From contig NC_057731.1 of NCBI RefSeq assembly GCF_004010195.1, forward strand, positions 29,369,374 through 29,433,373: a stretch of DNA of 64,000 nucleotides. Reading direction: 5' to 3'. Position 1 is the stretch's first letter, and each line of letters opens with the position of its first letter. The translations under genes and the position numbers were made by a program. Below the pieces are notes generated by a model. That model worked only from the letters and a program-made list of their open reading frames with translations, ran no database searches and was not told the origin of the DNA. Below, piece after piece: positions 29,031 to 62,902 of this stretch. The stretch comes from Chiloscyllium plagiosum (Eukaryota).

Positions 29031-29140
29031 TTAAAAAAAAGCCAGAGTGTTATGTGGCATGGGTACTGGGGGAAAATAAGCACTACTGCTGTCAGGCAGT
29101 AATGTGAGAATAAAAGAAAGGAGAGAGAAAAAAATAAATG

Positions 29141-29339
29141 GGAGAGTCACAGGTTCTGTTCACGCTGAGAACTGGCTCTGAGGGAGCTGCATCAGTGAGA
29201 GTGAAAGACTCTCCACAAATAAACCAGAATGTCAAGAGTTCTGTTCATTCCAGGGACTAGAACTGAGCTAGCTGGATAGAGTCTCGCTCACATAAAGGGT
29301 GACTTGGTGACCCGATATGGCCTCTGTGCAGTTATTTCA
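29141..29339 (+). mobile_element. LTR fragment of the 2849-3082 family
   Basis: ggttctgttcac..ctggctctgagggagctg..taaagggtgacttggtg..gttatttCA. Confidence 0.6.
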
Positions 29340-29696
29340 CCTACCTTTTATCCTTCTATCTTTCCACCCACAGGAATTCAGGCTATCAGTCATATTGTAC
29401 TGTTAATTGATTCATTACCTGGGCCCATCCTGTGGAATGGCTTGTAGTTAATGCCTCTCATCTCTATCCTATTCACCAACAGGACCTGGTGGCTCCACCT
29501 CCTGAAGGAGATATCCCAGCTCCAAATGAACTGAGTTCTATTGTGGTGCTGTTACAATACAAGACCCACATTCAGGCAGCCTCTATCGATGAGATTAACT
29601 CTTTAATGGGTATCACACCAGCAATATCTTATGGAAGCCTATGGCAGGAATTTTCTTTTCAACAAGCTAGTTTTATGGCAGGCTTACCTTTAGAGA

Positions 29697-29965
29697 TAGA
29701 ATAGAATTCCTGGAGAATAGAAGCAGGCCATTCAGCCCATCAAGTTCTTACTCTGTCTCTCCAAAGAACATCCCAAACCTCTGCCCGATTTCTGTAATCC
29801 TGCATTTCCCACAACTAATCCACCTAGCTACATATCCCTGGACAGTGGGAGGAAACCCAAACGGACACAGAGAATATGCAAACCCACACAGACAGTCGCC
29901 CATGGGTGGAATTGAACCTGGGTGCCTGGCACTGTGATGCAACAGTGTTGACCGCTGAGCCAATC
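29697..29965 (-). mobile_element. Diverged HE1-related SINE
   Basis: V-domain and tRNA-head remnants on the minus strand. Confidence 0.7.
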
Positions 29966-37704: not shown

Positions 37705-37925
37705 AGAGTCATAAAGTCATAGAGATGTACAGCATGGAAACAGACCCTTCGGTCCAACCCGTCCATGCTGACCAGGTATTCCAACCCAATCTAGTCCCAC
37801 CTGCCCGCACGCGGCCCATATCCCTCCAAACCCTTCCTATTCATATACCCATCCAGATGCCTTTGAAATTTTTCAATTATACCAGCCTCCACCACTTCCT
37901 CTGGCAGCTCATTCCATACATGTAA
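37705..37925 (-). mobile_element. HER1/CR1 LINE 3' end
   Basis: (ATAGAGTC)n-type tail plus 3' UTR matching 21455-21650. Confidence 0.85.
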
Positions 37926-39457
37926 TATCGAATCAGAAGCTTTATTAGAAAGAAATAATGCAGGGGGTATTGTTTGAAGTTTAAAACTTTATAACATAAG
38001 AACATGAAGACTGTAAACAAAAGAAAAACAGAGCCATGGATCTGAAACAAAAACAGAAATTGCTGGAAAAACTCAGCAGGTCTGGCAGAATTTCTGGACA
38101 GAAAGCAAAGTCAACATTTTGGGTCCAGTGACCCTACATAAGAACTGGATTCAGGATTGCTAACATGCAGAATTAAATTAGCTGCACAGTAGATTAAAAC
38201 AGTATTGATATACTGTAAAACTGAAACCATAAAAGCAAGCAAACACCAATAGGATGCTGCACATGTAACACAATTTTAAAGGAATATGAATTAATAATCA
38301 TGCTAAGAAGAAAATGATAGGAGAAGTAGCTATACCCAAAAGTCTTAGACTAGAGATGACCAAATAAAACTCAAGATTGGACATCTCCATGAAAATAATT
38401 CTTAGAACAAAGAATTGTTCCAAAATCGAATACTAGACCTCAAGCTGAATAAATAAATACACAATCGTTGAAATTGATTTATTGTCCATTCCAGGTTACC
38501 CTTGAGAAGGTGATGGTGAGTGGCCTTCTTGAATTGCCGCAATCCGTTTAGTGTAGGTGCACTCAGAGTGGTTGGGTACAGGGGTGGGGGGCAAGAAGGG
38601 CAAGGGGAGGTGGGCAGAGTTTGAAGATTTTATCTATTGATACTGAAGGAACTCAAATGAGAACTTGGCTAGCCGTATGGAAGCACACTGATGGAAATGT
38701 ACATTCTAAAGCTTGATGCATCGGCAGGTCTGTCAGAAAGCCAGCAGGCACCACCAATGAGCAAGAACAGGTCCAGAATCAACTTACACATGGCTTTTGC
38801 AGAACTTTGAATCAATCTTTCCAATATGAAGAGATGGCTAGGTTGATGAGAACATTTGTAAAATTGACCATGGTGCAGTGTTTGATGGCTAATGCCTTAT
38901 TTTGAAGAACAAGCAGAAGTCACGCAGACCCTGAGTACTGCAGTGGAAGCTTGGGTGCGGTCAGCAAATCTCAAGTTGCATGCAGGCTCAGACTGTGATA
39001 TATTGTTTGCTGATATCAGGGCTGAAAAAAGACATATAGACACTTGCAACAATCCAACAACCTGTGCTCCTGCAATTACAAGGAATGCTGAGATATTGCA
39101 GCGATAGGTCTGCAGTGATTCCATGATGAATGATATTGCATTCCTATCTCAGACTGACAGCATTCATGCTCACATCACTGCCATTGTGCTAGTACCCTTC
39201 CAGATACCTTTCAACAAGCTAAGATCGATTGCTGATGCTGCATTTTCAAGGTGGTAAAATCCAAATGCCAGTCCTTCCATGTCCAGAGCTGCTTGAGGTC
39301 ATCCTGCAAGGCTATGTGTAATCTCATCCACTGGTATTCAATGGCCTTTTACCAGCCATGTTACAGCTACTGACTTGAACCGCTTTAGGATCCCTGGAAC
39401 AAAGGCATATGCAATACATGCACTGAGTGAAAATACAAATGGCTGTTCACAATTATA

Positions 39458-39556
39458 GTTGAGATTGTGTTGCTGGAACAGCACAGCAGGTCAGGCAGCA
39501 TCCGAGGAGCAGGAACATCGACGTCTTGGGCCGGAGCCCTTCATCAGGAATGATGG
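39458..39556 (-). mobile_element. 99-bp Penelope-terminus insertion with decayed hammerhead
   Basis: 13-bp TSD GTTCACAATTATA at 39445-57 and 39557-69. Minus strand reads CTGATGA-AGGGC-tccg-GCCC-AAGA-CGTC. Confidence 0.8.
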
Positions 39557-40080
39557 GTTCACAATTATAAATGATCGACTGTTGAATTAGTTAGAGAAAG
39601 GAAGACTTATGCAGAAATTTTGATTAAAACCAAATTAATGTAATTGCACTGAACATACTTCAATTCTGTTGAAAAACAGGCATATTTCTGAAAGAGGTTT
39701 TAATATTTCATGGAGAGTTTCCTGATCTTTAAGATCAGTAAAGCCTCACAGTAGTGTTACAAATCACTGTGTCCTATTTCAGGGTCTAAATGTCATCTAA
39801 TCATTTTGGAGTCAATTTTAAGAAATGCTGCTACAGTCAGAATACTTTAATAGATGTGAATGCCAGTCAGAGACAGGGCTGTAACAAAACAGCATTAGGA
39901 ATTGTCACACGGATTGCCCGAGCCTGATAATGATGTATAGAAAACCAGCCTGATTTCTAGTCGACAAAAAAAAGATGTGTGAGGGCTAGGAAATTAGACA
40001 GCAGTCTATTTTGTCAGCTCCCTTGTGAATTCAATCAGTATATAAACATCAGAGAAGTCTTTAAAGAGAAGTTTGTTAAA

Positions 40081-40110
40081 ATATATATATATATGAGAGA
40101 GAGAGAGAGA
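40081..40110. repeat. Compound (TA)n(GA)n microsatellite
   Basis: Directly visible in the sequence. Confidence 0.9.
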
Positions 40111-43100
40111 CAGGGAGAGAATTCAGAGTTTTATTAATACAGGAATTAAGCACAATAGTAAGGAAATATTACTAAACATTTATAAAACACTGATGAGGCT
40201 TCCACTTGTGTTTTATGTTTGATCCTGGGCACTGCACTTTAGAAAAGATGTAAAGGCCGGGGGAAGCTCAGAGGAAGGCAGAATATTTTTGCTTGTTCAA
40301 TGATGTTAAAATTTATTGCTTCAATCTGCTAAATTTGAAAAGTTGGTTCTTCTAAAAGAGGTTGTTTTGCACTGCCCACCTAAGTACTTTATTAAAAGCT
40401 GTGGCTTCTAAGCATGATATTCATCAGCAGATTGATTCCTGTCATGAGACATATCTCATTCCACAAGAGATGAATTCCTTACCGCAGTCAATAACATATT
40501 GCTGGACTATTGGTCTCACCTCACTGACACCAATAAATTCTAGAAGCTGCTTCTTAGTCTTATTAATTACTTGGCTGATCTTTACAGAGCAGGTGAAGGA
40601 TTGTGCTCATCTTATGTTAGGAGGTGAAAGCAATTGATAATATCACTGGCAACTTGGTTGCTCATAACTGCCTGTCATCGGCAGTCATTTAGTTATCTTC
40701 CATTACATGCTCACTTGCTATCTTGAAAGGAGTCTTAGTTTAGAATTCAGAGTGATATGTGCAGCAATTTCCTGTGTCACAGGACTTTATTTTGATGATT
40801 TTCAGAGCAATGAACAGCTCACTGATCTAGTCCAACTATTATAAATGGGAAGCACATTATCCAGATTAATAGCCACTATGATGTATTCTCACTAAGCTCT
40901 CATGTCCCAGACAAGCAATCCATTTTTAATTCATAATAGGAGAGTCAGAAATTTGTCCAAATAACATAGCTAGAGATGTTGCAATGGGGACAAATTTAAC
41001 CCCCAAAGTTTTGTTGGGTTATTCTCAGAATCACTGGTTAGGAGAGTAGAGGCAAAACATCCTTTAATCCTTTTGAAAATGAGGGATGTGGTGTGTGTGT
41101 GTGTGTGTAATTTTTTTTCTCAGCATTAGCAGATAATACATTCACTCTTTCTTTAACTCAAAAAACTTGTGATTCACTCCTCATTCTTTAAAGTAAACTT
41201 TGTTAACCAATTTTTCACTGGAAAGAAGTGTAGCCTTGTGCTACGAAGAGTTTAAACTTCATTGTGACCAATCAAGGAAGCTTAAAAGTGGTGAGTTGAT
41301 TCCTCCCTTCTCACCTGGTTATAACAAAATAATAAATTATGTCAGTGATGATGGAGGTGTTGAATGAAAAACAATCTTAAAGAAACTTACACTTAAATGA
41401 TGTAAAAGTTGTAACTTCTGTCAAAATTCTGCCATTGTAATAACCAAGTTTCCATACTCTGTACTTCACTTAATATTTTTCTTGTACTATCTCGTAGATG
41501 AGAGCCTGTCTTTCTAAAGTACTGGAAAAGGATTTAGAAAGTGGGAATGTTATATATATTTTTAATTAGAGAGAGCCCATAGCTCAAGACCTATCCCTAT
41601 AATGCAGCAAATGCCTACCTATCCCTATTTGCTGCATTATTGCTCACAGGTCCATTTTGAATGGAATGAACTCAGTTAAGAATGAACCTCAGTATGCATT
41701 TGTTTCTCATGACAATATAAATGATGCAATGTTATGACTGTGACAAGTTTAGAGGACCAGCGAGACCTTGGTGTGCATCTCCATAGGTCCTTGAAGGCAG
41801 CATGATAGATAGATAAGGTGGTTAAGAAGGTCGATGAGATACCTGCCTTTATTTTGTCAAGGCATTGAATTTCATACATGAAAGATATGATGGATAGAAG
41901 CAAAATACCTCAAATGCTGGAAATCTGAAACACAGAATGCTGCAGAAACTCAGCAGGTCTAGCAACATTGGTAGAGACAGAAACAAAATGAACATTTTTA
42001 GTCCGGTATGACTCTTCTCCAGAACTTCAAAGTTGATCAAGATATTGCCTGGGCTCGATCAAGTCAGCTTTGAAGAGATACCAGATAGGCTGCGGCTGTT
42101 TTCTTTAGAGCAGAGAAGATGAAAGTGGGATCTGATTGAGCTGGTTAGAGTTCTGAGAGACATAGATACAGTAAACAGAGAGAAACTTTCCCCATTAGTA
42201 CTGGGGTCAGTAACCATCGGGCACAGCTTTAAGTTCAGGAGCAGGAGGGTTAAAGGGGATTTGATTACAGTGGAGGTGTGCAGCAATATAATTTGGTGCT
42301 CCCATCTCATGAACTAGATTATAACACATAGATAAGCATATCCCACACCACTGCCTTCCCTGGAGCACTGCTGAAGGTGTCTGCCCTAAAAGGGGGTGGG
42401 AATTCTATTTTGATGAAAGCTTGAATTGCCAGAGTATAACACTATGGTCCAAGTGCTGGAAATGGGATTAGAATAGATAGGTGTCTACTGACTGGCACAG
42501 AAAAGGTGGATTGAAGGGTGATTTATCTGCCAGTAAAAACTCTGTGACTTTCTGTGACTATTATATATTTCTGTAACTTGCTTTGTGAAAAGCCTCATTT
42601 CATGGCACTGCATCTGTCTTTACAAGTCATGGACAAGGATTAGGTTTCAGCTTTCGTAGAAAACGGACTACAAAATGAATGAGATCATTGAAAAGACTGA
42701 CAAAGGCCCTGGGATTCTTTACTGGGATTTGAGTGTTGCTGGGACGGCCTGTATTTGTTGCCCACACGTCATTACCCTTGAATTGACTGCCTTGCTTGGA
42801 CACTTCAGAGAGCAGTTAAGAGTTAATCCTAATGTAGGGTCTGAAATCACAGAACAGCTAAGGACAAAAGATTTCTTTCCCAAAAAGATATGTGTGAACC
42901 AGATGGGTCTTAATGACAATCAATAATGGTCTATTAGTCATCTGAGACGAGCTTTCAGTTCCAGAATTGTTTTTGCTAGTAACTAAATGTAAATGCTATC
43001 AATGTAATCATTATAAAGCTGCGCCATTGATCAGAGGTCAATAAGCAGTTCATTTTCCTGTGTTACAAGTTATTTTTGCACACTATTAACAAATATATAT

Positions 43101-45577
43101 TTCAAAGATAAATGCATATAACAGGTGCCAGATCAATTCCAGGACTAAGCTTGGGTGCTAAAAGTCTGAATACATCAAATGGAAATAAAAACTGAAGTAA
43201 GGAGTCCTACTGTTGGGAGAAACTGGAACAATTAAGTGAAATTGTCATACTGTGAAATTAGTCTTGTGTTTGAACAGGTACAAATGTAAGACTGGAAGAG
43301 CTTGTAAGTTTGGGTGTTTGGAGGTTGCAGTGAAAAGTGAGAAGTCATGGATGAGAAACGAGTAGATTTTCATTGCCTCGAGTGCAATTTGGAGGATGAT
43401 TGCACACATTTCATTGAAGCCACTAGATATTCTGTCTACTTTTAAAAATTCTGTGAAGGAAGAGTAATCACTCAGTAATGAGAATTGGTGTTCAAAGATG
43501 TCAAGAAAACCCATTGGTAATTTAATCTGAAAAACAAGCTGAAATATGTCTGCAGCTGGTTGAAGGCAGAAGAGCACTGCCCGAGGTAAATGTATGGAAC
43601 TGGAAGATTCAGGAGTGATAAATTGTTCCTTAGTACAGTGGGTGATTTCCATACAGCTGTCACTTTGGTAGTTACTTGACCATCGGTATCCATATAAAGC
43701 TTGAGAGTTTGAATATCTTGAGTCAGAAGTTTCTAATGGAGATCTCACTTCACCTTCTGCAACCTCTGCACTTTTCCTCCAGAATATGATGAGGGTAATA
43801 CTTTACCCCTCATTTTCTACTGTTGCTGATAATATAAGGAAAACCTGTTTAAATGTAAGTACTTGTAGTGGATAGATGAAGGAAAAACAAACACAAAGCA
43901 AAGCATGCACAGAAGGCCGTGTAATAAATGAAAATAATTGTGTGAAACCCCCTCAGCCAGGTGTAACCTCTGAGGCTAAATAATGCAGTCTGTACCCGGG
44001 GGGAATGAGTAAATTTGATTCTCATATGTTGCAGCAAAGGTCACTTCCTGACCTCAGTTGCCTGAATAATCTAGATCCTAGTACTTCATGTGTCCTTAAA
44101 AGGTTTAACTGCAGTAATTACACTGAAGAAAAATTGCCCCTTCAATATATTAAAGAATTCATAAATTTAAGTTTTCCATAATAGAATTTGGCTTGTGATT
44201 GCTAAGAATTATTTTTCAATGCTGTCTCTCCTGCAGTCACTTAAGATGCTGCCAGATTATTAATATTATTCTTTAAACACATTTCACTTCATCAGAAAAG
44301 CACTTCACCTGAATTAGAAGGAAGAAGCAACTCAGTCGGGTCACATACCTTTATTTAAAATGCTTTTTACACCAGTTTAGAACCTCTACTTCAGCAATAT
44401 CTAAAGTTTCTTTTTCACTTTTCAGAACATGCTTTAAGATGTTAAATTTTAAGGTGCTGTTACAATAAAATAGTCTTACGTTGCACTTACAGAGGACGTT
44501 TAATGTAAAAAGAAACAACACAATGTGCACCAGGAAAACATAACAGACAAATGTGACACTGGGCCAAGAAGATATCAGAAAGAGTAACTAAAAGCTGTAT
44601 GCTTCAAAAGGGATTTAAAGAAATAGCAGGTTGGAAAGGCAGAGAAGGTTTAAGGGAGATAATTTTGGAGCTCAAAATTTAAATGACTGAAAACACTGCC
44701 AAAAATAGTTGAGTGAAGGGAGAGAGCGATGCAGAAGAAACTAGAGTTGTAGTAACCTGAAATGTTCAGAGGATTGCATGGTTGTGGGAAATTTCAAAGG
44801 TACAGAGATGTGAGGTCATTAAAAAAATAAATAGATGAGAGTTTTAAATAAGAGGAGCTGGGTAAACAGCAACCAATATAATGTCGGCAAGCATGAGGTG
44901 GGGATTTCATGAGGTCTAGGATATAAGCAACAAGGTTTTGGATGAGCTAATGTTTATGGGTGCTGAGCAACCATTAGATTTGACCATTGGAATTGTGAAG
45001 GTCACAAAGAGTTGGATATAATTCAACAGGTTTGTGCACAACCTCCCAGTGACAGTCCCATTTGGTGGGACAATGGAGATTAAATATGGGTTAGCAGTGA
45101 TTTGGTCAACTGAGCCAAAGGCTCCATAAAGATCAAGACAAATAAGGAAGATAGGAAGTATTAATATTCATTGTCACAGTCAAGGGGATGCAATTTCTGA
45201 CGTTGATGAGTGCAGTTTCAATTCCGTGGCAGATACATAAGCTTGATTGGAGAGATTCTCACTGTTAGAGGAAAGGTGATGGATTTGGGAGGTAATGGCA
45301 TGCTCAAGGAGTTTGGAAGTGATGGGGAGGTTGGAGGTGGACTGACAGTTTACAAGTACAAGAGGATTGTGGGTGGTATTTTGAAGGGGTTGATATTGGA
45401 AAGCGAGAGTATCAATTTGTTGGAAATTTTATGTCATGAAATAAAGAAACTCTTTGCAACTCAGGATGATCCTGGAGTAGTCAATGATTTTGGGAGGAAA
45501 TAACCTATGATAGGTTTGAACTGGATCCAGCAATGAAGTAAATAGCTAAACCAATTGTGCATTGGTTATTCTTAATT

Positions 45578-45727
45578 TGATTAGATTAGATTAGATTCTC
45601 TACAGTATGGAAACAGGCCCTTCGGCCCAACAAGTCCACACCGACTCTCCGAAGAGTAGCCCACCCAGACCCATTTTCCTCTGACTAATGCACTTAACAC
45701 TATGGGCAATTTAGCATGGCCAATTTG
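45578..45727 (-). mobile_element. HE1 SINE 3' fragment
   Basis: (TTAGA)n tail and LINE-derived 3' region. Confidence 0.8.
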
Positions 45728-45889
45728 GTGTCCCTTGGTTTTTGAGGAAGCACATAATGGGGCTCAACCAGGAAAATAACCAAAGGTATAAATATGGATT
45801 TATTGTGCATAAGGCAATGAAATGCAGACATGAGGGATTGACTGAAGTGATTGACAGTTGAAGAAGTATTGTGAACACAGACAGCTAAA

Positions 45890-46825
45890 GACATAAGAAC
45901 AATAGAACTAGGAACAGGAGTAAGTAATTCACCCCAAGTCTGCTCTGCTCTTTAATAATGATTATGCTGATTTTAACTCGACCTCAATCACTTTGTGGCC
46001 CATTCTCCATAACCCTTGATCCAATTACTAATTAAAAACCTATCGGTCTCCTTCTTAAATTTACTCAATATCCCAGCATCCACCACGCTCTGAGATAGTG
46101 ATTGTTGATGCTTTGAGAGAAGTAATTCCTCATCATCTCTGTTTTAAATCTGCTACTCTTTATCCTGATGACTTAGAAAGATAATCTCTGGACTATTAAT
46201 CCACAATGCACTGGGCACTGGGGTTAAAATTCTGCCATGGAACTTGAATTCATTACAAAATATGAAATTTAATAATGACAATGAAACTGTTGTCAATTTT
46301 TGGAAAAAAACCCATCTGGTTCATTAATGTCCTTTGCAGGGGAAATAGCCATCTTACATGGTCTGGTCTATATGTGACAACAGACGCACAGAAACATGGC
46401 TGACTCTTAACTGCCCTCTAGACAAATAGGGTGGGCAACAATGCCGACATATGGTGAATGAATAAAAGAAACAATGATCTTTCATTCTAGATTGCTCTAC
46501 ATGAGGATACATCTTCTCTACATCCATTTTGTCTATCCCCTATAGTATATTATATGCCTCAATCGAATCTGCTCTCATTCTTCTCCCCTCCAGAGACTAT
46601 AGGCATAAACTGCTCAGTCTCTCTTTATAATACAAGCCCTTCATCTCTGGAATCAATCTAATAAGCCTCCTTTCAACTGCCTCCAATGTAGCTACATCCC
46701 TCCATACACAAGCGAGCGTATGAAAATTGTATGCAACACTCAAGGTCTCACCAATGCCTTGTGCAGTCGCAATAACATTGCCTGAGTTTTATACACTATT
46801 CCTTGAGCAATAAATGCCAAAAATT
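45890..46825 (-). mobile_element. Decayed CR1 LINE 3' region with a nested repeat at ~46170-46460
   Basis: Minus peptide LAFIAQGIVYKTQAMLLRLHKALVRP is typical of the CR1 ORF2 C-terminus. Confidence 0.7.
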
Positions 46826-47554
46826 TGAAATAAAGAGACTTGGAGAGTTTGTGGAGTTGGGGATGAGGGGGTGCGGTTTGGAAGGGGACAGGATGATATA
46901 AATGGTGAAAATGAGGAAAAGATGAGGTGGCCTTATCTCTGATCAAGCTGTTGGGAGTAGCAGGACCAAGAAATGTGGCAATGTTACTGAAGCAACAAGG
47001 TAAGAAAAAGCAGTGAAATCAAAACAGAGAGAATGAAGGCAAAGTATATTAGAGCAATTCCCGCTGCAGTTAGAGAAAAGAGGTGAGGATTTCTTGATTA
47101 TAAAGAAAAATTGGGACAGGAATTTGCAATGCAGTGGAGAATAAAGATTTTTAAAGCAGTTGAGATGGATGGGAACAATTGGAGATAGGATGGATGGTTG
47201 AGAAGTAACAGAAGGTAGTGTAGTAAGCAAGGAGAGATTTGTTGATTTGAGCCACTGTATCATTTTGGTAGTTTGAGCTGGGTAGCTGGTGGAAAGTATA
47301 GCTGCGATTGGGTGTTGAGTAGAAGACAGTAGGATTGGGCCTGATCCAGGCAACTGGAATGTATTGTAGGCAGCAGTCCAGGGTTTCTTTTTAATCAGAG
47401 CCTGGATGTCAATTATGTAACAGCTTGCAAGGACTTTGTTTGAGTTTGACCCAACTTTATCGACAGAAATGCAATATTAGGTGGTGGCTGCTAACATGCT
47501 GGAAAGATCCAAAATGGCTTGGTAATCTCGGGTGAGCAGCGCAAGAATATAATT

Positions 47555-47709
47555 GTGATGTGAAGGTGCTGGTGTTGGACTGGGGTGGACAGAGTTAAAG
47601 ATCACACAACACCAGGTTATAGCCCAACAGGTTTATTTGGAAGTACAAGCTTTCGGAGCGCTGCTCCTTGATGAAGGAGCATAACCTTGGTGTTGTGTGA
47701 TTTTTAACT
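47555..47709. mobile_element. Fold-back Penelope-terminus mini-insertion
   Basis: Minus-strand terminus followed by a + strand copy starting at the hammerhead core. TSD AAG(A/C)ATATAATT at 47543-54 and 47710-21. Confidence 0.75.
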
Positions 47710-48659
47710 AAGCATATAATTTACATTATTCCCAATTGGACATATTGAGTGAGAGAGACAGAAGATGGAATGCTGCTTATAATGAGGCATTGACAACTGC
47801 TTCAATTGAACCCTTTAAAGAATGACATAAATGGCACAGTTGGAAGCTGTGACCTTTTCCTAGAGGGATTAGAAACCTAGCTTGGAGGCAGGAGACCATG
47901 ACAGCATACCATGATAGCAGCCAAAAGTATCAGATTGGAGGAAGGAAATGGGAACAAATTCCCAGTAAATGGAGAAATGAAAGGTGAGACCCCTGGGTGT
48001 TAAGAAAGGAAATAAATTGTAGAGAAAGGCCCAAGACATTGAAGGAGACGATAAGGAACAGGGATAAGAAATAATGGATTCAGGTTTAGAAAAGAAGTCA
48101 GAATGTACACTGAAATGGATGTAGTGGAATTTCAGGTTACACAAATGTACCAAAGGTTAAAATAGCTATGTCCCTGTTGTAATCAGAGGATAGTCCAACA
48201 TTAAAGTTGAAGCCCCAGTGATGTTATTAACTTAAATAGTACAAAGTGTGGGGTCAGGTTCAAGCAACAATGAGCCTTTGAGTAGGTTCAGAGACAGGTG
48301 TACAGGACCTAAGTCCAGGAGCAGTTTGTGGAAGACATTTTGCAATTTAATCATTGACTCCAGTTACTGCCTGAAGCTGATCCAGACCATTTGCAATCTC
48401 AGTGTCCTATTGGACACTGATCTGAGTTTCTGGTGTCATTTCCTCTCTATCACCAAGTAAGTTGAGTTCTATCACTGTGACATCACAGACATGTCACACC
48501 TCAGCTCAACCGCTGTTAAGATTCTCATTCATAACTTGTTACCTTTAGATTTAACTATTATAATCCTCTCTTGGTCAGCTTCATACATTGCACCCTTAAC
48601 AAAATAAGTCCTGAAATTCACACTAACTCCTACATATCCATCATTCTGTTGCTCATGGG

Positions 48660-49512
48660 CCCACCTACAAACAGACCCCATCACCAGAGATATATTTCCC
48701 TCCCCACCCCTATCTGCATTCCATAAAGACCATTCCCTCTGTGACTCTCTTGTCAAGTCCACGCTCCCCACCAACCCACACCCAGCACCTTCACCTGCCA
48801 CTGCTAGAATTGCAAAACCTGCACCCATACCTTCCCCTTCACCTCCATCTAAGGCCCCAAAGGAGCCTTCTACATTCTTCATAGATTTACCTGCACTTCC
48901 ATATGTCATTTATTGTATCTGTTGCTCCTGATATGTTATCCTCTACAAAGGGGAGACAGGACGCCTACTTGCAGAATGCTTCAGAGCACATCTCTGGGAC
49001 ACACGCATGAAGCAACTTCACCGCCCCATGGCTGAACACTTTAACTCCCCGTCCCACTCCGCCAAGGACATGCAGATGCTGGGCCTCCTCCATTGACAAA
49101 CCCTAACCACCAAATGCCTGGAGAAGGAACACCTCATTTTCTGCCTTGGCATCCTCCAATCACACAGGATTAATGTGGACTTCACCAGTTTCCTCATTTC
49201 CCCTCTCCCCATCTTATCCAACTTTCCAACTCGGCATCACCCTCTTGACCTGTCTTACCTGTCCATCTTCTTTCCTACCTATCTGCTCCACCCTCCTCTC
49301 TGATCTATCACCATTATCTCCACCTTCATCTACCTATGGCACTTTCAGCTAACTTCCCCCTAGCCCCACCCCCACCCCATTCCCATTTATCTCTCTAACC
49401 CCCTGGCTCACAAGCCTCATTCCTGATAAAGGGCTTATGTCCAAAACGTCGATTCTCCTGCTCCTCGTATCCTGCCTGACCTGCTGTGCTTTTCCAGCAC
49501 CACACTCTTGAC
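48660..49512 (+). mobile_element. Penelope-like element 3' part (GIY-YIG endonuclease relic plus terminus) inserted in an L2-like remnant
   Basis: Decayed VIYCICCS..LYKGETGRLLAECFRAHLWD..HFNSPSH..EKEHLIFCLGILQSHRINVDF. Ends with decayed hammerhead ctgataaagggcttatgtccaaaacgtc. Confidence 0.85.
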
Positions 49513-51447
49513 CCATGGATCTACATTGGCTATTAACCCAGCAATGCCTCAATTTAAAAGTTCTCATCTTTTGCTTCAAACCCTTCCAGGGCTTTCCCAT
49601 TCCCTACCTTTTCTCTTAAAATAAGATGGCTGAGTAGTTATCTAATATAATTCTTTAAAGTTATGAAAGGTTTGGACAGAATGAATGATGAGAGAATGTT
49701 TCTTCTTGTTTGAAAGAGTATAGCCAGAGCCAGTAATCGAAGATAGTTAAGCAAGAAATCCAATGGAGAATTCTTTACTCAAAGAGTGGAAAGAATGTGG
49801 AAGTCGCTATCACAGGAAGTAGTTGAAGTGAATAGTTTAAGTGTACTTAAAGGAAAACTGGACAAGTATTTAAGGAAAAATGAAATAGACGATTATGATA
49901 GTAAGAAATATAGGAAGAAGGTTCCATAAACACCAACATGGCCTGATTGGGCTGAATAGCCTTTCTTAAGCAGTATATGCTATATAAGCCATTGCAATTT
50001 CCTCTTGTTCCAAAACCTTCAGAGGTAACTGCACTTATCCAATCTGACCATTTATACTACAAATTTTAACTCTCCACCATTGACATTCATGGAGCTACTT
50101 GGCTATGGGACTGTGCTAAATGCAGTATCTCAATGCATGTTTTCGTTATTGCTGGAGAGGCAGAAAGAACATTCTTGTTTTATTATTCCATTTTAATTTA
50201 TTCCTACATGCTACTTATTTCAACACAGTTTCCTTCAGCACGAATGTTGCTGCATGTCTTAGATTTATACAACGTTTCCAATCGATTTCACAGGTCTGTA
50301 GCGAATCTTTTTATCCATTTTAAAATATTGCTTTTTTTTCTGGGGATTGGAGACTGTTCAACATTTAACTTGGTACCAACCAAATACTATTTTCATTCCC
50401 AAAAATAAAGTGAGATTACAGGGTGCAAAACTCTAGTTAACACTGCAGGTGCATTACTTATTAACCTCAAATAAAAGCTAATTTACAGTGGAGGGGCCAA
50501 TATACAATGCATGGAAGTGGCTCTTATGGTGCAGTGGTTGTGTTCCTAATCCTGAGTTAGAAGTCCCAGGTTCCATAACATGTCAGAACAGGTGAATTAA
50601 AAATATCTACAAGGAAAGGAATGTGACTTTCTGAGCCATCAGACCCTGAAAAGCATCTCATGTGATTCAAGTAGTTCTGTTATTTTGTTTTAAATGTATT
50701 GAAAGATATAAACACAGAATGATTTTCTTAAGTGTTACTTAAAAAAGTTATTTTGCTTTGAGGAATAAAGGCCATTTACTAATTATAGGGATTAATTTTA
50801 ACTTTGTACTACCTGTCCTTAACAGGAGATGGGAAAGGAATTATTCACTACAGAATGCCTAGCGTCTGACTAAATACATAGTATTTATATAATTGGTCCA
50901 GTTCAGTTTCTGGTCAATGGTAACCCCGAGGATGCTGGTAGTGGGGGATTCAGTGATGGCCATGCCACAGAATATCAAGAGGCAGTGGTTAGAATCTCTC
51001 TTGTTGGAAATAGTTCTTGGCCTGGTACATGTGCATTATGTATATGTTACTTCACACTTATCAGTCCCAGGTGCTGTGCATTTATCTCACTCATTCATAC
51101 AGAAGGATCCTATATTTCCCTCAATATATCATTCAATTTCATTAATAAACATTAATTTCACAATTTTACCGAACAATTGGACCTTATTAGGCAGGCAGTA
51201 TAAAAGTCAGTAATTGTAAGAAGTTACGGTAGGTGGATCACAGTAAAGGCATGGACAGGAAATGTTGAGGCTTACACCCTTGCCGCATTCTTTTGGTGCC
51301 CATTCTCAATGGCAAGGGTACTTTTGGGGCATAGCATCATCTTACCCGTAAACCTCAAAGGTGTTACTTTAAAAGTTGTGCACTCTGATTCTTCTTTTAC
51401 AATCTGTCTATGCTGTGGTTCTGTTCGCCGAGCTGGAAGTTTTTGTT

Positions 51448-51487
51448 GCAAACGTTTCGTCCCCTGTCTAGGTGACATCCTCAGTGC
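51448..51487 (-). ncRNA. Minimal type I hammerhead ribozyme motif (antisense twin)
   Basis: Exact reverse complement of 51798-51837. Confidence 0.7.
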
Positions 51488-51797
51488 TTGGGAGCCTCCT
51501 GGGAAGCGCTTCTGTGGTGTTTCCTCAGGCATTTATAGTGGCCTGTCCCTGCCACTTCCGGTTGTCAGTTTCAGCTGTCCACTGTAGTGGCCGGTATATT
51601 GGGTCCAGGTCGATGTGTTTGCCGATGGAGTTTGTGGATGATCCACTCAACAAACTCCATCAACAAACACATCGACCTGGACCCAATATACCGGCCACTA
51701 CAGCGGACAGCTGAAACTGACAACCGGAAGTGGCAGGGACAGGCCACTATAAATGCCGGAGGAAACACCACAGAAGCGCTTCACAGGAGGCTCCCAA

Positions 51798-51837
51798 GCA
51801 CTGAGGATGTCACCTAGACAGGGGACGAAACGTTTGC
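51798..51837 (+). ncRNA. Minimal type I hammerhead ribozyme motif
   Basis: GCA-CTGAGGA-tGTCaCC-tagaca-GGgGAC-GAAA-CGTT-TGC: stem I GCA/TGC, intact core, stem II, palindromic ACGT stem III, predicted GUU cleavage triplet. Confidence 0.72.
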
Positions 51838-53397
51838 AACAAAAACTTCCAGCTCGGCGAACAGAACCACAGCAATGAGCACCCGAGCTGCAAATCTTCT
51901 CACAAACTTTGAACAATCTGTCTATTTTAATCACAAAAAAGAAAAGTAAAAGCATTCATGTGTATCTGTGATTCAACCAGACCATCCATTTTAATAACTC
52001 ACTACCCTCCCTATTCCATTTAGTAGTACTTACCATCTGTTTTCTGTCTAAGGGGCACCAGTTCTCTTAAACTTCTTTCCACAATTTGCAGAAACACTCT
52101 TTCCATTAAAACAGAATGCTTTTTGTCTCTTTAACAAACTACAGGTTTTTTTTTCACCTTTAACTCCCATGTCGGGTCAAAAATGGATCTGGACCCATAT
52201 TACAGGAAGAGTGTGGGACTGACTCAGTCGAGCAATAGGTTTTGGGTATCAAGTCTTACCTGAGGAATGAGAGTGAGCTTCTGGCGTTAGCAAACATCAA
52301 ATGGGTACTGACAGAAAAATATGATTGGGAGGTTATGTGCAAGGTATATGATAAATCATGATATGAGTATCATAAAACTTGAGATATCTCTCCACTAACA
52401 GTATACTTTTACATTGCGGTTCGAAATGTGATATGTTGTTTCACTGAAAAGTAGAAACATTCATTCTATCAGAAAGTTAAGCCCATATTTTAAAGTTAAC
52501 AGAACAAGGATAATGTTAAGTGAAAAGTAGAGCAATTAATTGAACCTTCTCAATCTCATCAGTTAATAAGCTGACAGTAATCTTTACCCAGAGATTTGAC
52601 TCTGCTTGGAGCTCTTGTCACCATAAACAGATTAACTATATGTCAATTAAACCATATACAGAAATGTTTGGATGACTTACAGGAATATAGCAGTAGCTTT
52701 CACTTTGCAGCCGAAAATTAATACCAGATACATTGTGGGCTGATCTTGATTGCAACATATGTATAACATTTAACCCATCCTTATTGGAAACACTGTACTG
52801 AGAATGATTCTGAGATGGTATGTTATTTCTTTGTCATTGCATTCTGTCAAAAAGTCGAATCAGATGTTATTACAAGGCCCATGTTTGAACACCAGTTCTG
52901 AGTGGGATAAATTTCACTTAAAGTGGGTATAATGACATTGTCTAAAGATGTTTTTGCAATTTTTAGTATATATTGAATAGTCTCTTGAAGCAGGTTGGAG
53001 CAATGCAAAGACTCACCAAACTAATACGTTAAACACACTATTTCATAAACAGTAGTGCAATGTGTTTTAAAGGTTGCCAGAGATTTAATTGACAACTAAT
53101 TCTAATGATACATTAGGAGTTTTGTCATATCTGGTGGAATTATAATTCAAAATAGATGTTCTTTGTGTTGGATAGGATCATTGTAAGGAACAAGGCTCAT
53201 CATTGCCTTGAAATTATACTATGTGTTAGCAATGCATAAAATTTAACAAATTTTAAGTTCTTGGTTAAATAATATCACTTGAAAAAATTAAATGGATTTC
53301 ATGTTAATTTTTTAGATTGTTACAAATAATTCGAGTCTTTGTCACCATATTTTCGTCAGCAGATTGTGTTTTAATTTTTCCCCTTTCTAAACAGTGG

Positions 53398-54420
53398 TGT
53401 CACACTCCCCCACTCCCTTTGTTTTTGGACTCTAGTTTGGTACGGGTTTCAACAATACTACTATAACATTAAACCAGAAGTAGGGCTTATTTTCACACAC
53501 TCTGAGATGTGCAGTGTGGTAGTGGATATTTTGCAACACAGGAAGGCTTGTAAACATACATTTTAAGATCAGACGAAAAGGATAAAATGTTTATTCAATT
53601 AGCAACAACTCAAGTATGAAACACCTAAGCAATCCTAGTTTATCAATTTTCTTGCATTTAGGACAGAGTCCAAAAGTCCACAGCTGGAATTCTTTGTAGG
53701 GGTATTTTATTGTCTTACTGGCAGTTCAGGAGTTGTCAACAAGTTCTTCAAGTTTCCAGTAATGGTTTTCTGAGGAATATTGGTGAAATATAAATTTTGC
53801 CTTGCTGTTTTAATGAAAGGAGTTGATTATGTGCAGAGAGAACAATTTCAGGTTATTGGCTACTTTTTACTGGTCAAAAGATTTTGCTTAGTAGCTTGGA
53901 GTTAGGAGTTTTGATATTGTTAATAGATGGTGTATGAAGCAGTCTTGACTCCTTAACTGTCCACTATTTTAAAATTATATGGTTAAAAGGAAGTCGTGTT
54001 TAGTATCGTGTGAATCATGTAACCAAGCCTCTTCTCTTGGGGATGTAGTGATTTGGTGGGACAGTTGCCATTGAGACAAAGGCCTGCATTCCAGAAGCAA
54101 TGTAAATGGTGTCCGAATCCACTTGGGAAAGTGTGCTAATACTCAAGCTTCACTTTACCTGGGTTTGTCTTCTTAAGAGCCTACAGACACACACAGACAG
54201 ACATAGATAAACAAAACACCGTACATGTTTTGGGAGGAGTAAAAATATGAGAGGAACTAATCACCTTTGTGGGGATAAGGCTAAGGCTGCAAAGATGACC
54301 AAGAGAGAGTCCTCAATGTTGACATATAAGATGCATTAAAGAAGAATAGAATGCTATGTGAAGTTGTAGAGGAAGGACTATTAAGTAAGGATGGCATTGG
54401 TGGAGTAGTTAGAGGTGACA
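53398..54420. mobile_element. Possible solo LTR (about 1 kb)
   Basis: Termini TGTCAC...GTGACA with flanks GTGG and TTGG. No coding remnant and no second copy in the window. Confidence 0.35.
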
Positions 54421-54889
54421 TTGGTTTAGGTGATCAGTTTAGGTGGTGTGATGATACTATGGCTTTAAGAGGCGTATTTTGTTCTGGCTTTTTTGTGAAG
54501 AAAGGTTGAGTCAGAAGTGCCAATGATCTGTTCCAAGCCAATAAAGTAAACAGCTTGTGAGGCCTTGGGCTTTTTCTCAAGTTGGAACAACAGAAGCAGT
54601 GTGAAGGAATGTGGTCAAGCTCCCACAGAACCAGAATTTTAGTTTAACTTTCAGAAACTGTTGAGATTTGGAAGCTGTTATACATTCTCTTCCTGCGACA
54701 ACAAAGTGCTTGACTTCTCTCACTCTCTCTTAGAGTTTTCTCTTGATGTTCTTTCCTCCTAGGCTGGAGGAACATTGCATGTAAAATAATCTATTTTGCT
54801 GAATTTGCCTCAGCCAATGGTGTGTTTATGGGATGTTACTATTGGAACTGCTAATCAGTAGTAGTTAGCATATACATATCTTGTTTCTA

Positions 54890-55695
54890 TAAATGGAGAT
54901 TAATTTTCTCCTTTACTATTTTCTCTAATAGTGTCTTTACCATTAATGTTAGACTCACTGGTCTACCGTTCCTTGATCTATCTCTACCACCCTTCTTGTA
55001 AAGTGGAGACATGTTACTGTCCTCCAGTCCTCTGGCATCTCCCCTGTAGCCAGGGGTGATTTGAAAATTTGGGTCAAGGCCCCTGTAATTTCCTCCTTTG
55101 TCTCCCACAGCAGCCTGGGTTTCAATCCATCTAGACTTGGGCATTTGTTCACTTGTAAATTTACCAAAACTTCCTCACTTCCTGTATCAATTTCCTCAAG
55201 GACCTCATGATCCATTTTCTCAAATTCTGTATTTGAATCCTCCTTCTCCTGAGTAAACACAGGTGTTATGTACATACTTAACACTCTGTCAATGTCCTCT
55301 GCTTCTTTCACAGATTGCCCCCTTCATCCCCTCGCTTTCCCTGATTATTCTCTTCCCCTTGATATACATGTAGAATGTCTTGGGATTCCCTCTAATCTTG
55401 CTTATCAGCATTCGCCTGCCAGCTTGCCCCTTCTTTGCTCTCCTAATTGCTTTCTTGAGAATCCCCTGTACTTTCAGTACTCCTCTGGGGCCACCATTAT
55501 TTAGCTCCCTTTGAACCTGTTATACATTTCTCTTTTCCTTTATATCCAGTCCTGAATATTCCTAGATATTCATTGCAATCTGCTTTTGGTGCTTCTATAT
55601 TTCATGCTAAAGGAGACATGTTGGGCCTGTACTCCTCTAATACCTTTTGAATGCTTCTGCTGTCTACTGTGGATTTATTCTTAAGTAGCTGTTCC
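54890..55695 (-). mobile_element. CR1 LINE ORF2 fragment
   Basis: Minus peptides ALTQIFKSPLATGEMPEDWR and PLYKKGGRDRSRNGRPVSLTLMVKTLLEKIVK. Confidence 0.85.
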
Positions 55696-55729
55696 CTTAC
55701 AATTCCCAATATAACTCTTCTATTCCAGA

Positions 55730-57340
55730 AGAGAGATTGGCAGAAAACTATAGATCAATGAGCTTGATGTCTATTAAGGGAAAGATGTTAGAATCAATCA
55801 TTATGGAAGCTATATTACATTGGAAAGCTCATGATAATCAGGAAGATTCACCATTGTTCCGTCTAAAGGAAACCAAGCCTAACTAATTTACTATAGTTCC
55901 CTGAAGGAGTACCATGTACTGCGTATAAAGGGAGCCTGTATATGTTCTGCGCAGTACTTGGATTTCCAGAAAACATTTGTTAAGGCACAAAAAAAGCTAT
56001 TGCAAAAAGTAGGAACTCATGGTGTACGGAGTAACATTTTAGCATGTATAGAAGATTGGTTGTTGGCAGAAAACTAAGAGCCTACATAAATAGGTATTTT
56101 CCTCATTGGCAGGATGTGATGAATGGAGTCTTGCCACAGTTTAAGTGTATTTAAGGCACAGATGGATAGGTTCTTGATCAGTAAGGGGATCAATGGTTAC
56201 AGGGAGAAGGCAGGAGATGAGAAACATATCAGCTATAATTGTATGTTGGAGTAGAGTCAATGGGTCAAAAGGTCTAATTCTGCTCCTGTACCTGATGGTC
56301 TTGGTGTTCATATTAGCTCTACACCAATGATTTAATTATGGGAGTGAAGGCATGGCAGCCAGATTTGCAGATAACATGAACATAGGTAAGAAAGTATGTT
56401 GTGAAAAAGACACAAGGATATCGCAGATGAATTTAGCTGGATTGACAGAGTTGGAAAACTCTAGTAGGTACACTATAATGTGTAGAAAATGCAAAGTTGT
56501 TCACTTTAGAGGGATGAACGAAAAAGCAGACTATGGAGGAACCTCAATTATCCGGCATTTGATTATCCAAATATCGGATTATCTGGCAAGATTGCAAGGT
56601 CCTGATGCTTGGCTAAACTATGTTATCCAACATTCGATTATCTGGAATTCGATTAACCGAACAAAACACTCCCACCTCTGTCTTTCAGATAATCAAGGTT
56701 CCTCTGTATACTTCAGTGGACAATGTCAGCAGAATTGTCTGAGTTACAAAGGGATCTTGCTATTCTGAAAAGTTAGTCTGCATGTTATAGCAAGTACTTA
56801 TGAATGCTCATGGAATGCTATTCTTTATGACAAGAAGAATTGAACAGAAGAAGTAAGGATATTATACTTCAGTTGTACAGTTTATTGGTGAAACCACTTC
56901 TCAAATATTGTGTGCAGTTTCAGGTGGTTCAGAACAGGTTTGCTGAAGATATACTTGGAATGAGTGGATGATCTTAAGAAGGAACATCGGGCAAAATGGG
57001 CTTATTTTCACTAGAGCTCAGAGAGTAAGGGGTGACTTGCTTGAAGTCAGTAAAATGCTGAATAGTATTATTCAGTTGGACATGGAAAGGACTGAGGAGG
57101 TGCACCCAGAATAAGAATTCACCCTTTTATGCCAGAGCTGAGGTCGTGTTGTGTGACCCAATGGTCTGGAGGGGTCATTGAATATTTCTAAGTATTTTGA
57201 AAGTAGATAGATTTTATTCGGCAAGGGAACCAAAACGTATTGATGGTAGATGGGAATTTGGAATTCACAATGTAACAGATCAACGTTTACTTCTTGAATG
57301 GTATATCTGGCCTTGGTGACCAAATTCATATGTTCCAATA
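55730..57340 (+). mobile_element. Decayed CR1 LINE (RT region to 3' UTR) with nested insertions
   Basis: NYRSMSL, LTNLL, ARFADNMNIG and KCKVVHF remnants, followed by a CR1-like 3' UTR. Confidence 0.75.
56534..56706. mobile_element. Tc1/mariner (pogo/Tigger-like) MITE
   Basis: About 21-bp TIRs (tggaggaacctcaattatccg and cagataatcaaggttcctctg), TA duplication at 56532-33 and 56707-08, internal TTCGATTATCCG sub-repeats. Confidence 0.8.
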
Positions 57341-58107
57341 TTCATAATTGATTGTTTGGCATCCATGGCCAGATTCTCTGGATAAAGGTGAGAATGTTGA
57401 ATTGGTGGGAATGTGGAATCGGTTGGAATGAGGAATTGGTTGCTACTCCCATCTGAAGAATGTTGTCTCCATTTTGTGCCATCTTTCCTTTCCACATTGA
57501 CTTCAGTGCATACAACATTTACACTGGGTCCGCCAGCTGCCTTACACTTTGAGCACTTTGATTGGCCCTCCCACACTGTCGAATTGCCTGTCATTTCAAA
57601 GAATAAGGAGGAGCCTCATATAAGCCAACACTATTCCAACAGACCTAGACTGGGTAAGTGCAGAAATGATGTTCCTGATTACCAAAGAGACCAGAAAAAG
57701 CCACCATAGTTTAAGGACGTGGGGTAGACCGTTTAGGACTGAGATGAGGAGAACATTCCTCATGCAGAGAGTACTGCAGAAGTCATTGCGCCAGAAAGAG
57801 GTAAAATATTGAGTGTTTTCAAGAATGAATTACATGTAATTCTTAGGGCTAATTGTTCAAAGGGTATGGTGAGAAAGCAGAAACAGGAGTTGGATCACTA
57901 TATGATCAATCATAATCATATTGAGTGGTAGAACCAGCTCAAAGGGCCAAATAGCCTACTCCTTCTATTACACTTTTCTAAATGTTTCTGGGTTTCTAAC
58001 CCTAATTTGACAGTACTTTAGCTGGTGTCTTCTGAACTAACTTTGTACAAAAAGATTATACCCAATGTGCCACTACATTTGTAACTTGGAATCAACTTCA
58101 TTTTGGA

Positions 58108-58258
58108 GAGAAAGTGAGGTTTGCAGATGCTGGAGATCAGAGCTGGAAATGTGTTGCTGGAAAAGCGCAGCAGGTCAGGCAGCATCCAGGGAACAGGAGA
58201 ATCGACGTTTCGGGCATAAGCCCTGAAGAAGGGCTTTTCCAGCAACACATTTCCAGCT
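58108..58258. mobile_element. Fold-back Penelope-terminus mini-insertion
   Basis: 17-bp TSD ATCAACTTCATTTTGGA at 58091-107 and 58259-275. 25-bp inverted arms. Strand switch at ccCTGAAGAAGGGC. Confidence 0.85.
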
Positions 58259-58380
58259 ATCAACTTCATTTTGGACTTGTGTGAGAAAATTCAGCTCCCT
58301 TTTGTCACATACTTACATATATATTAAATCAGTTATTTTTCAAGAGAAGTGGAAAGGAACTATCAGGAAACCCAATGTAA

Positions 58381-58527
<147 letters not shown>

Positions 58528-62867: not shown

Positions 62868-62902
62868 CACCTGATGAAGGAGCATCGCTCCGAAAGCTAG
62901 TG
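62868..62902 (+). ncRNA. Minimal type I hammerhead ribozyme motif
   Basis: CAC-CTGATGA-aGGAGC-atc-GCTCC-GAAA-GCTA-GTG: stem I CAC/GTG, 5-bp stem II, palindromic AGCT stem III, predicted CUA cleavage triplet. Confidence 0.72.

What the first reader, a model, noticed from the sequence alone, without database searches (positions are those of the whole stretch)
51399..51925. ~460-bp palindrome with an intact hammerhead ribozyme on each strand, inserted as one unit with a 13-bp TSD
Seen: two ~225-bp arms with only a few mismatches, a tiny central hairpin (GTGGATGATCCAC), a perfect TSD ACAATCTGTCTAT, and identical hammerhead motifs at 51798-51837 (+) and 51448-51487 (-). Established: Penelope-like elements carry minimal hammerheads in their terminal repeats and often insert with an inverted 5' part. 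Inference: this is a young insertion. Transcription from either strand would give a ribozyme plus its exact antisense, so in cpxm2 pre-mRNA it should form a long dsRNA that masks the ribozyme and may be an ADAR or Dicer substrate.
Basis: partly seen in the sequence, partly recalled or inferred. Interest (0 to 1): 0.7.

Follow-up and report, generated by a model that had tools for sequence, protein, structure and literature searches.

The report
Mirror-image Penelope stub in shark intron
This 501-base insertion in an intron of a shark's cpxm2 gene, absent from the same site in a related organism, is the truncated end of a Penelope-type jumping gene joined head to head with its own mirror image (a layout already described), and the mirror image is predicted to lock its small hammerhead ribozyme into a long hairpin so that it likely cannot cut.

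Summary
Observation confirmed; the thing is ordinary. Each arm holds the last ~57 codons of an RT/GIY-YIG Penelope-like ORF (89% identical to a Chiloscyllium protein) and a minimal type I hammerhead. Two runs of a related organism show the empty site with one copy of the 13-mer, so it is a true target-site duplication. Inverted copy + 30-40-bp tail + TSD, a junction palindrome, and opposite-strand hammerhead pairs 100-700 bp apart are all in print (PMC3846280, PMC8557442, PMC4209133). Two more such units of other families lie in this window, and the scan noted this pattern before on other DNA (73 findings, at least 11 genomes). Likely mechanism: both nicked target strands primed cDNA at the element's two internal start sites, and the two ends were joined at the centre. 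The ribozyme is predicted fully masked (about 80 kcal/mol). ADAR/Dicer action is untested: no RNA read crossed this locus's centre. The centre junction was not bridged by any listed contig. Interest 0.15.

The parts
51399..51411 (.). Left copy of 13-bp target-site duplication
   Evidence: present once at the empty site in X9 and X13 (table 8)
51412..51641 (-). Inverted, tail-less copy of the element end (ORF C-terminus + pLTR); carries all 5 arm differences away from the centre, including an in-frame stop
   Evidence: (tblastn P0002 407-463 at 51641-51471, 82%)
51448..51487 (-). Minimal type I hammerhead motif, identical to the + copy
51642..51649 (.). 8-nt junction filler (TCCACTCA) made of locally similar pieces; with the left arm's end it forms the small GTGGATGATCCAC hairpin
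   Evidence: family sequence upstream of 51650 given by loose ends; alternative reading: 2-nt filler plus a 3-nt deletion in the right arm
51650..51873 (+). Direct, 5'-truncated copy of the element end (ORF C-terminus + pLTR)
   Evidence: P0002 408-463 at 51647-51814, 89%
51647..51817 (+). Last 56 codons and TAG stop (51815-51817, inside hammerhead helix II) of the RT/GIY-YIG ORF, downstream of the GIY-YIG motif
51798..51837 (+). Minimal type I hammerhead motif; predicted cut 3' of U51834 (GUU); helix III is only the palindrome ACGU
   Evidence: features as listed in PMC4209133
51807..51912 (+). ATG inside the hammerhead and start of a reading frame, stopped at 51876-51878 in this copy (family often has C at 51876); likely the element's ORF start
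   Evidence: parallel to PAc in PMC11167929; inference
51874..51912 (+). 39-bp tail, present on this end only
   Evidence: family copies end at 51874/51875 and at 51913 (table 7)
51913..51925 (.). Right copy of the 13-bp target-site duplication
24992..58413 (+). Host: 33.4-kb cpxm2 intron that holds the insertion (approximate bounds from tblastn)

Best explanation
This is a dead, 5'-truncated insertion of an endonuclease-bearing Penelope-like retrotransposon (likely Penelope/Poseidon clade) in a cpxm2 intron, made of a direct end-copy with a 39-bp tail and an inverted tail-less end-copy between 13-bp target-site duplications, and it was likely built at the site when both nicked DNA strands primed reverse transcription. 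Steps: (1, inferred) the element's endonuclease nicked the two strands 13 nt apart in AT-rich DNA; (2, inferred from PMC11167929) the bottom-strand nick primed cDNA from the RNA's distal start site (tail end, 51912) and the top-strand nick from the proximal start site 39 nt inward (51873/4); (3, inferred) both cDNAs stopped at almost the same point of the template (within 0-6 nt), probably the broken 5' end of one RNA, and were end-joined with a short filler; (4, shown) the result is a palindrome with a one-sided tail and a TSD, absent in organism B. (5, predicted) In cpxm2 pre-mRNA, and equally on the other strand, the antisense arm is made first and captures the ribozyme arm as it emerges, so the hammerhead would not fold or cut; the 227-bp hairpin would be a plausible ADAR substrate but has no shown function. 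My odds: PLE insertion of known layout 0.97; two-ended priming 0.6; ribozyme silent at this locus 0.9.
For: Arm peptide matches four Chiloscyllium punctatum proteins of 8 candidates, best 89% to P0002, which has an RT domain (RVT_1 E 3e-6, just under the curated cut-off), a visible VVY...YIGQT motif and GIY-YIG look-alikes at 0.95. Empty site: one contig each in X9 and X13 (two studies) runs from 51398 straight to 51913 with consecutive record positions (table 8). Two sharp family ends: contigs leave the element into unlike flanks at 51874/51875 (30 in X4; 8+10 in X6; 8+10 RNA reads in X21; mirrored at 51410, 33 in X4) and at 51913 (27 in X5), i.e. 39 nt apart; PAc in vitro cleaves and extends both strands and its tail lies between two RT start sites. 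ATG in the hammerhead, cut site +28, ends at +67 and +106 parallel PAc (cut 26 bp after the start codon, RT start at 111-118). Other copies join left arm to right arm at many different points, 14 joints read from the listed rows, often with filler letters between (table 5c); 6 of 14 are symmetric within 17 nt against 14% expected for independent truncation (p 0.009; best-supported rows only). Two more inverted+tail+TSD units of other families at 16159-16385 and 58091-58275. Masking: (38-41 of the last 41 nt pair with the mirror at each of 5 transcript lengths).
Against: No listed contig bridges the centre with 31 letters on each side; depth there is non-zero in organism A (127-425 at 51646, 0 in organism B) but about 5 times single-copy or more, so not clearly this locus. 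Outer junctions in organism A extend only 22-25 letters into the element (X4 both sides, X5 right side), under the tool's 31-letter bar, and X5's left contig stops at 51411. The near-symmetric truncation and the small centre hairpin fit fold-back self-priming (PMC3846280) at least as well. All 4 mutational events between the arms are on the left arm (p 0.125), which could mean two different templates. No tree was built, so the clade rests on the missing linker zinc finger and the ATG-in-ribozyme layout. 8 of the 14 joints are asymmetric by 42-148 nt.
Confidence: 0.8

Rival explanations
1. Same element and layout, but made by fold-back self-priming: one cDNA (or an antisense RNA) snapped back at its 3' end and was copied on itself; the endonuclease then resolved the hairpin, leaving the tail on one side (model of Arkhipova et al. 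2013).
For: Small hairpin at the junction; both arms stop within 0-6 nt of each other; excess of near-symmetric joints, 6 of 14; both arms share letters that are minor or variable in the family, such as T51731 and T51834; PMC3846280 reads junction palindromes this way.
Against: The tail-less end is a sharp family terminus matching a second RT start site shown in vitro; filler letters at many joints (table 5c) suit end-joining of two free ends (inference); fold-back needs an extra step to stop exactly 39 nt short.
Confidence: 0.3
2. The hairpin acts on the host: it is edited by ADAR or diced and alters cpxm2 splicing or level, or the ribozyme still cuts the intron.
For: 227-bp near-perfect duplex in a gene's intron; three A-C mismatches on the host strand (A51581, A51662, A51663), a context ADAR favours (recalled knowledge); family RNA is present in one single-cell run, 158 reads of 12.96 million.
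Against: Lineage-specific, absent in organism B; 6.5 kb and 26.4 kb from the nearest exons; family-level RNA changes were dominated by G>A (10) and C>T/T>C (5 each) against A>G (3), and 2 of the 3 A>G sites are common DNA variants while the third is seen also in opposite-direction reads; no pile-up of read ends at the cut site (table 6). These reads come from other copies, so they say little about this locus.
Confidence: 0.1
3. A self-propagating non-autonomous unit (retrozyme- or MITE-like) that moves as a whole palindrome.
For: One inverted joint (51484/51659) has depth 205-299 in X4, X9 and X13, above single copy, so some inverted joints have been recopied.
Against: Joints of other copies fall at many different places; arms are pieces of the PLE coding sequence; no head-to-tail tandem units as retrozymes have (PMC7229834); the inverted repeat does not reach the right TSD; only one copy of this family in the window.
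Confidence: 0.05
4. The inversion is an assembly artefact.
For: Centre not bridged; window differs from all four runs at 5 flank substitutions and one insertion among the listed rows.
Against: Arms differ at 6 sites and the centre has an 8-nt filler; left flank joins the inverted arm and right flank joins the tail in X4; TSD and tail follow the published layout; contigs of other copies show inverted joints.
Confidence: 0.02

Closest known systems
Insertion units of endonuclease-bearing Penelope-like elements: Pen2a_Av of Adineta vaga (PMC3846280, passages read) and the general scheme in Craig et al. 2021 Fig. 2 (PMC8557442, passages read)
   Same: Inverted 5'-truncated copy adjacent to a direct copy, 30-40-bp tail on one end, TSD, palindrome at the inverted junction, pLTR plus tail covering the first codons of the ORF
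   Different: Here nothing is left between the arms but the last ~57 codons; TSD 13 bp (8-10 bp in the rotifer cases), tail 39 bp (31 bp); shark family
Minimal type I hammerheads of metazoan PLEs (Cervera and de la Pena 2014, PMC4209133; parts 1-2 of 4 read)
   Same: Full core, extra nucleotide between 9 and 10.1, G10.1-C11.1, palindromic 15.2-16.2 with no loop 3; the paper already reports dual motifs ~100-700 bp apart on opposite strands (here about 310 bp between motifs)
   Different: Helix I is 3 bp plus a possible GGAGG/CUUCC extension, helix II 6 bp with a bulge; H17 is U in this copy, C in 30-32% (organism A) and 64-84% (organism B) of family depth; no shark element in the parts I read
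PAc, Poseidon of Anolis carolinensis (Frangieh et al. 2024, PMC11167929; parts 1-2 of 4 read)
   Same: ORF starts at helix II of the hammerhead; tail bounded by two sharp ends; AT-rich target
   Different: PAc is full-length and assayed in vitro; the parts I read do not explain the inverted arm by two-ended priming; sequences not aligned here
Non-LTR retrozymes (PMC7229834, passages; bioRxiv 10.64898/2026.07.22.740005, part 1 of 5 and passages)
   Same: Small, protein-less, type I hammerhead, PLE-related
   Different: Retrozymes are head-to-tail tandem repeats giving circular RNA; this is head-to-head, so no RNA strand carries two ribozymes

Membership tests
EN+ Penelope-like element insertion | Single ORF with RT and C-terminal GIY-YIG endonuclease | tested here: met
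   Met for the family, not this stub: arm peptide is 89% identical to the C-terminus of P0002, which has RVT_1 at 27.4 bits (cut-off 29.6) and GIY-YIG look-alikes at 0.95, family share 15-20% of members; Pfam gave no GIY-YIG hit at E<=0.1
EN+ Penelope-like element insertion | pLTR carrying a hammerhead motif | tested here: met
EN+ Penelope-like element insertion | Adjacent inverted 5'-truncated copy | tested here: met
EN+ Penelope-like element insertion | 30-40-bp tail on one end | tested here: met
   39 bp; family ends at both tail borders
EN+ Penelope-like element insertion | Target-site duplication | tested here: met
   13 bp; empty site in X9 and X13
Penelope/Poseidon clade | No zinc-finger-like motif in the RT-EN linker (present in Neptune and Nematis, PMC8557442) | tested here: met
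   by eye on P0002: no Cys between the RT thumb region and the VVY motif
Penelope/Poseidon clade | Placement in an RT tree | not tested
   no named reference PLE proteins were fetched
Minimal type I hammerhead of PLEs | Core CUGANGA / GAAA / UH, extra nt after A9, G10.1-C11.1, palindromic 15.2-16.2 | tested here: met
   against PMC4209133
Minimal type I hammerhead of PLEs | Helix I 4-5 bp and helix II 7-8 bp (Schistosoma families) | tested here: inconclusive
   3 bp (+5-bp extension when forced, 2.4 kcal/mol above the free fold) and 6 bp with a bulge; helix I probability falls from 0.8 in the 40-mer to 0.01 in the 153-mer
Minimal type I hammerhead of PLEs | Self-cleavage as dimer or with element protein | not testable with these tools
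   needs an assay; no read-end pile-up in one single-cell library
Rfam hammerhead families | Covariance-model match | tested here: not met
   no hammerhead match at E<=1 in 48000-56000
Non-LTR retrozyme | Head-to-tail tandem units, each with a type I hammerhead | tested here: not met
   head-to-head, one family copy in the window
MITE / DNA transposon | Terminal inverted repeats abutting the TSD at both ends | tested here: not met
   39-bp tail separates the right arm from the TSD; arms derive from a retroelement ORF

The most novel reading that the evidence does not exclude
Two-ended Penelope palindromes are the shark counterpart of inverted Alu pairs: made ready-folded at insertion, three in this 64-kb gene stretch alone, they supply much of the long nuclear double-stranded RNA, are heavily edited by ADAR (here at A51581, A51662 and A51663 first), and their built-in antisense arm disarms the hammerhead so that they are tolerated in introns.
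Probability: 0.2. Interest if true: 0.5.

Novelty: new member of a known kind. Interest (0 to 1): 0.15.

Why it matters
As a locus it matters little: one dead stub of a very abundant family. As a class, such stubs with an empty site, two sharp ends and a readable centre junction are raw material for an open question, how Penelope-like elements make inverted ends and tails (called undefined in PMC8557442); a search for 'twin priming' with 'Penelope' listed 3 papers, none about PLE integration by title or abstract start. If edited, they would be a main source of double-stranded RNA in shark nuclei; a search on shark ADAR editing of inverted repeats listed 4 papers, none on shark repeats by title.

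Tried and rejected
Whole-genome count: no genome is held for this window, so copy number is unknown; element depth is 6e4 to 3e5 times the flank depth, which the tool says is no copy number. Rfam: only mir-122 at 22 bits against a gathering score of 70, E 0.63, rejected as a generic hairpin. Unconstrained fold of the single arm is no more stable than shuffles (z 0.1). Dimer cofold of two 46-mers did not give the active dimer fold; energy models do not capture it, so no conclusion. Run search: no RNA holder listed, no evidence either way. RNA lay: X22 gave 0 reads (no test); X21 gave 158 family reads, depth 0.2 in the centre bin, so this locus was not tested. A>G at 51812 (12 of 68 RNA reads, about 1% in DNA) rejected as editing: 7 of the 12 are in opposite-direction reads, and non-editing changes (A>C 51818, G>C 51743, C>A 51862) are enriched alike. 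Absolute dating dropped: the 7e-10 rate in PMC10587355 (abstract only) is per generation, so the 'Myr' label is wrong; it is also from a species not shown to be this one, and arms need not have been identical at insertion. Presence/absence within organism A unresolved (X5 left contig ends at 51411). Joint count: 9 of the 15 rows listed in table 5 and 5 further rows of the 12 in table 5c were used; dropped were 2 opposite-strand rows, 4 same-arm skips, 5 duplicates and 2 flank rows; 62 and 30 more rows were not shown. The inverted pair at 18942-19408 (64%) has no TSD and was set aside. Sequence look-up in earlier scan notes found nothing. Search for GUU versus GUC rates gave one unrelated listing; that GUU cuts more slowly than GUC is recalled. 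Search for shark Penelope papers listed 9, none read. Supplements of the cited papers were not opened; alignments there might include shark hammerheads.
Full report
1. Observation. The described features are in the sequence. A 13-bp direct repeat sits at 51399-51411 and 51913-51925, its only two occurrences in the window. Between lies 501 bp: an inverted repeat with arms 51411-51638 and 51647-51874 (97%; 6 mismatches in 227 positions, perfect runs of 90, 24, 53, 40 and 12 bp) and 39 bp, 51874-51912, with no mirror. The whole folds at -470 kcal/mol, z -48. Both hammerhead motifs are identical and lie inside the 90-bp perfect run. A minimal-hammerhead descriptor found 3 sites in the window against 0.01 on average in 100 shuffles; Rfam found no hammerhead. 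tblastn with ray and shark CPXM2 proteins places four exons on the + strand, with the unit in the 33.4-kb intron between 24991 and 58414.

2. What it is. The right arm reads as an open 57-codon frame ending in TAG inside hammerhead helix II; the left arm has the same frame on the - strand with one internal stop. The peptide matched 4 of 8 candidate proteins, all from Chiloscyllium punctatum, best 89% to the C-terminus of P0002. P0002 has an RT domain (RVT_1, E 3e-6, slightly under the curated cut-off), then a VVY...YIGQT motif with Cys and His residues, and its last 164 residues resemble GIY-YIG clusters at 0.95. So each arm is the 3' end of an endonuclease-bearing Penelope-like element, and the host is likely a carpet shark related to Chiloscyllium (inference). 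The linker has no zinc-finger motif, and an ATG inside the hammerhead (51807) opens a frame into the tail, with the cut site at +28 and the two ends at +67 and +106; the Anolis Poseidon element also starts its ORF at helix II, 26 bp before the cut (PMC11167929). This points to the Penelope/Poseidon clade; no tree was built.

3. Reads from other samples. In X9 and X13 (organism B, two studies) a single contig runs from 51398 directly to 51913 with consecutive record positions (table 8): an empty site with one copy of the 13-mer. In organism A, X4 has contigs from the left flank 25 letters into the inverted arm and from the tail (22 letters) into the right flank; X5 has the right junction only. 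These overlaps are below the tool's 31-letter bar. No listed piece bridges the centre; depth at 51646 is 127 in X4 and 425 in X5 but 0 in X9 and X13, suggestive only. The family is very abundant in both organisms (depth 6e4-3e5 times the flank; not a copy number). Family contigs leave the element into unlike DNA at two sharp places: 51874/51875 (30 in X4, 8+10 in X6; mirrored at 51410 by 33 in X4) and 51913 (27 in X5). Other copies join the inverted arm to the direct arm at many different points (14 joints taken from the listed rows), so inversion is routine for this family and mostly made anew. Age is relative: after the split from organism B, but arm-to-arm difference (5 of 221, 2.3%, 95% interval 0.7-5.3%) is like the flank difference to organism B (2.6%) and above that to other organism A samples (0.6%).

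4. How it most likely arose. Shown: TSD, tail, two family ends 39 nt apart, near-symmetric truncation (left arm ends at the mirror of 51644, right arm starts at 51650 or 51644) and an 8-nt filler. From print: PAc cleaves and extends both target strands in vitro and its tail is the stretch between two RT start sites. Inferred: staggered nicks 13 nt apart each primed a cDNA, one from each start site; both ran to about the same point, probably the broken end of one RNA, and were end-joined. This accounts for TSD, tail and inversion in one event (odds 0.6). The rival is fold-back self-priming (PMC3846280), which fits the small centre hairpin and the excess of symmetric joints (6 of 14 within 17 nt, p 0.009, a biased subset) (odds 0.3). 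My data cannot say which arm of the other copies bears the tail, so they do not decide between the two.

5. What the RNA would do. On either strand the antisense arm is transcribed first. Folding of growing transcripts shows 38-41 of the newest 41 nt paired to the mirror at five lengths; in the full element each of the 40 ribozyme positions pairs with its mirror at probability >=0.997, and forcing the ribozyme fold costs 80.6 kcal/mol. Even unmasked, helix III is only the palindrome ACGU, the dimer-type minimal form; a single such motif showed no detectable cleavage and dimers little (PMC4209133), and the PAc ribozyme cut only with protein and was dispensable for insertion in vitro. So this copy is predicted silent as a ribozyme. 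ADAR action is plausible from general knowledge, and three A-C mismatches on the host strand (51581, 51662, 51663) are the places to look. It is untested: in X21, 158 of 12.96 million records lay on the stretch, from other copies; centre depth was 0.2; changes were G>A 10, C>T 5, T>C 5, A>G 3; no read ends piled up at the cut site; X22 gave none. An intronic hairpin would mostly stay nuclear, which makes Dicer less likely than ADAR (inference).

6. Known or new. The layout is in print: inverted 5'-truncated copy and 30-40-bp tail (PMC8557442), with TSD and junction palindromes (PMC3846280), and minimal hammerheads paired on opposite strands 100-700 bp apart (PMC4209133). Two more units of the same build from other families lie in this window: 16159-16385 (178-bp palindrome, tail about 30 bp, 12-bp TSD) and 58091-58275 (17-bp TSD, opposite orientation). 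The scan's earlier notes hold 73 findings with these words in at least 11 genomes, and several already propose priming from both strands; these are unchecked AI notes and not independent support. It is not a retrozyme (no tandem units) nor a MITE. I found no paper on this shark family, but supplements were not opened. Verdict: real, new member of a known kind, interest 0.15.

Noticed in passing
window 16159-16385: Second inverted+tail+TSD unit of another hammerhead-bearing family: 178-bp palindrome (92%), unmirrored tail of about 30 bp, 12-bp TSD CAATAAATACAG; the join falls at the front of the hammerhead.
   Followed up: partly
window 58091-58275: Third such unit, third family, opposite orientation, 17-bp TSD ATCAACTTCATTTTGGA, with short arms and a partial hammerhead; it ends only about 140 bp before the cpxm2 exon at 58414, closer to a splice acceptor than the finding itself.
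   Followed up: partly
window 60240-60515, 62712-62992, 47553-47672, 12830-12914: Further copies of the 16166 family; 62871-62899 passes the minimal-hammerhead descriptor.
   Followed up: partly
window 13921-14029, 14731-14832, 38039-38147: Three ~105-bp related repeats with decayed hammerhead-like cores, probably a fourth family.
   Followed up: no
proteins P0004 and P0005: Chiloscyllium punctatum gene models of NT5DC1 (isoform X3) and MAP3K7 (isoform X3) end in this family's endonuclease C-terminus, suggesting predicted exonisation of PLE copies in host genes.
   Followed up: no
window 51348, 52180, 52201, 52247, 52277, 52291: The window differs from all four runs, both organisms, at these flank places (five transitions and one inserted base): a private haplotype or assembly errors.
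   Followed up: no
family joint 51484/51659: One inverted joint is present above single-copy depth in both organisms (X4, X9, X13), so some inverted joints were recopied from a source element.
   Followed up: no
window 1-266, 10537-10851, 15388-15691, 16664-16966, 18892-19408, 27058-27243, 29817-29962, 45574-45725, 59913-60223: An abundant ~250-300-bp interspersed repeat, SINE-like; two copies form a 64% inverted pair at 18942-19408 without TSD.
   Followed up: no
window 62199-62344: Run of 146 N (assembly gap).
   Followed up: no
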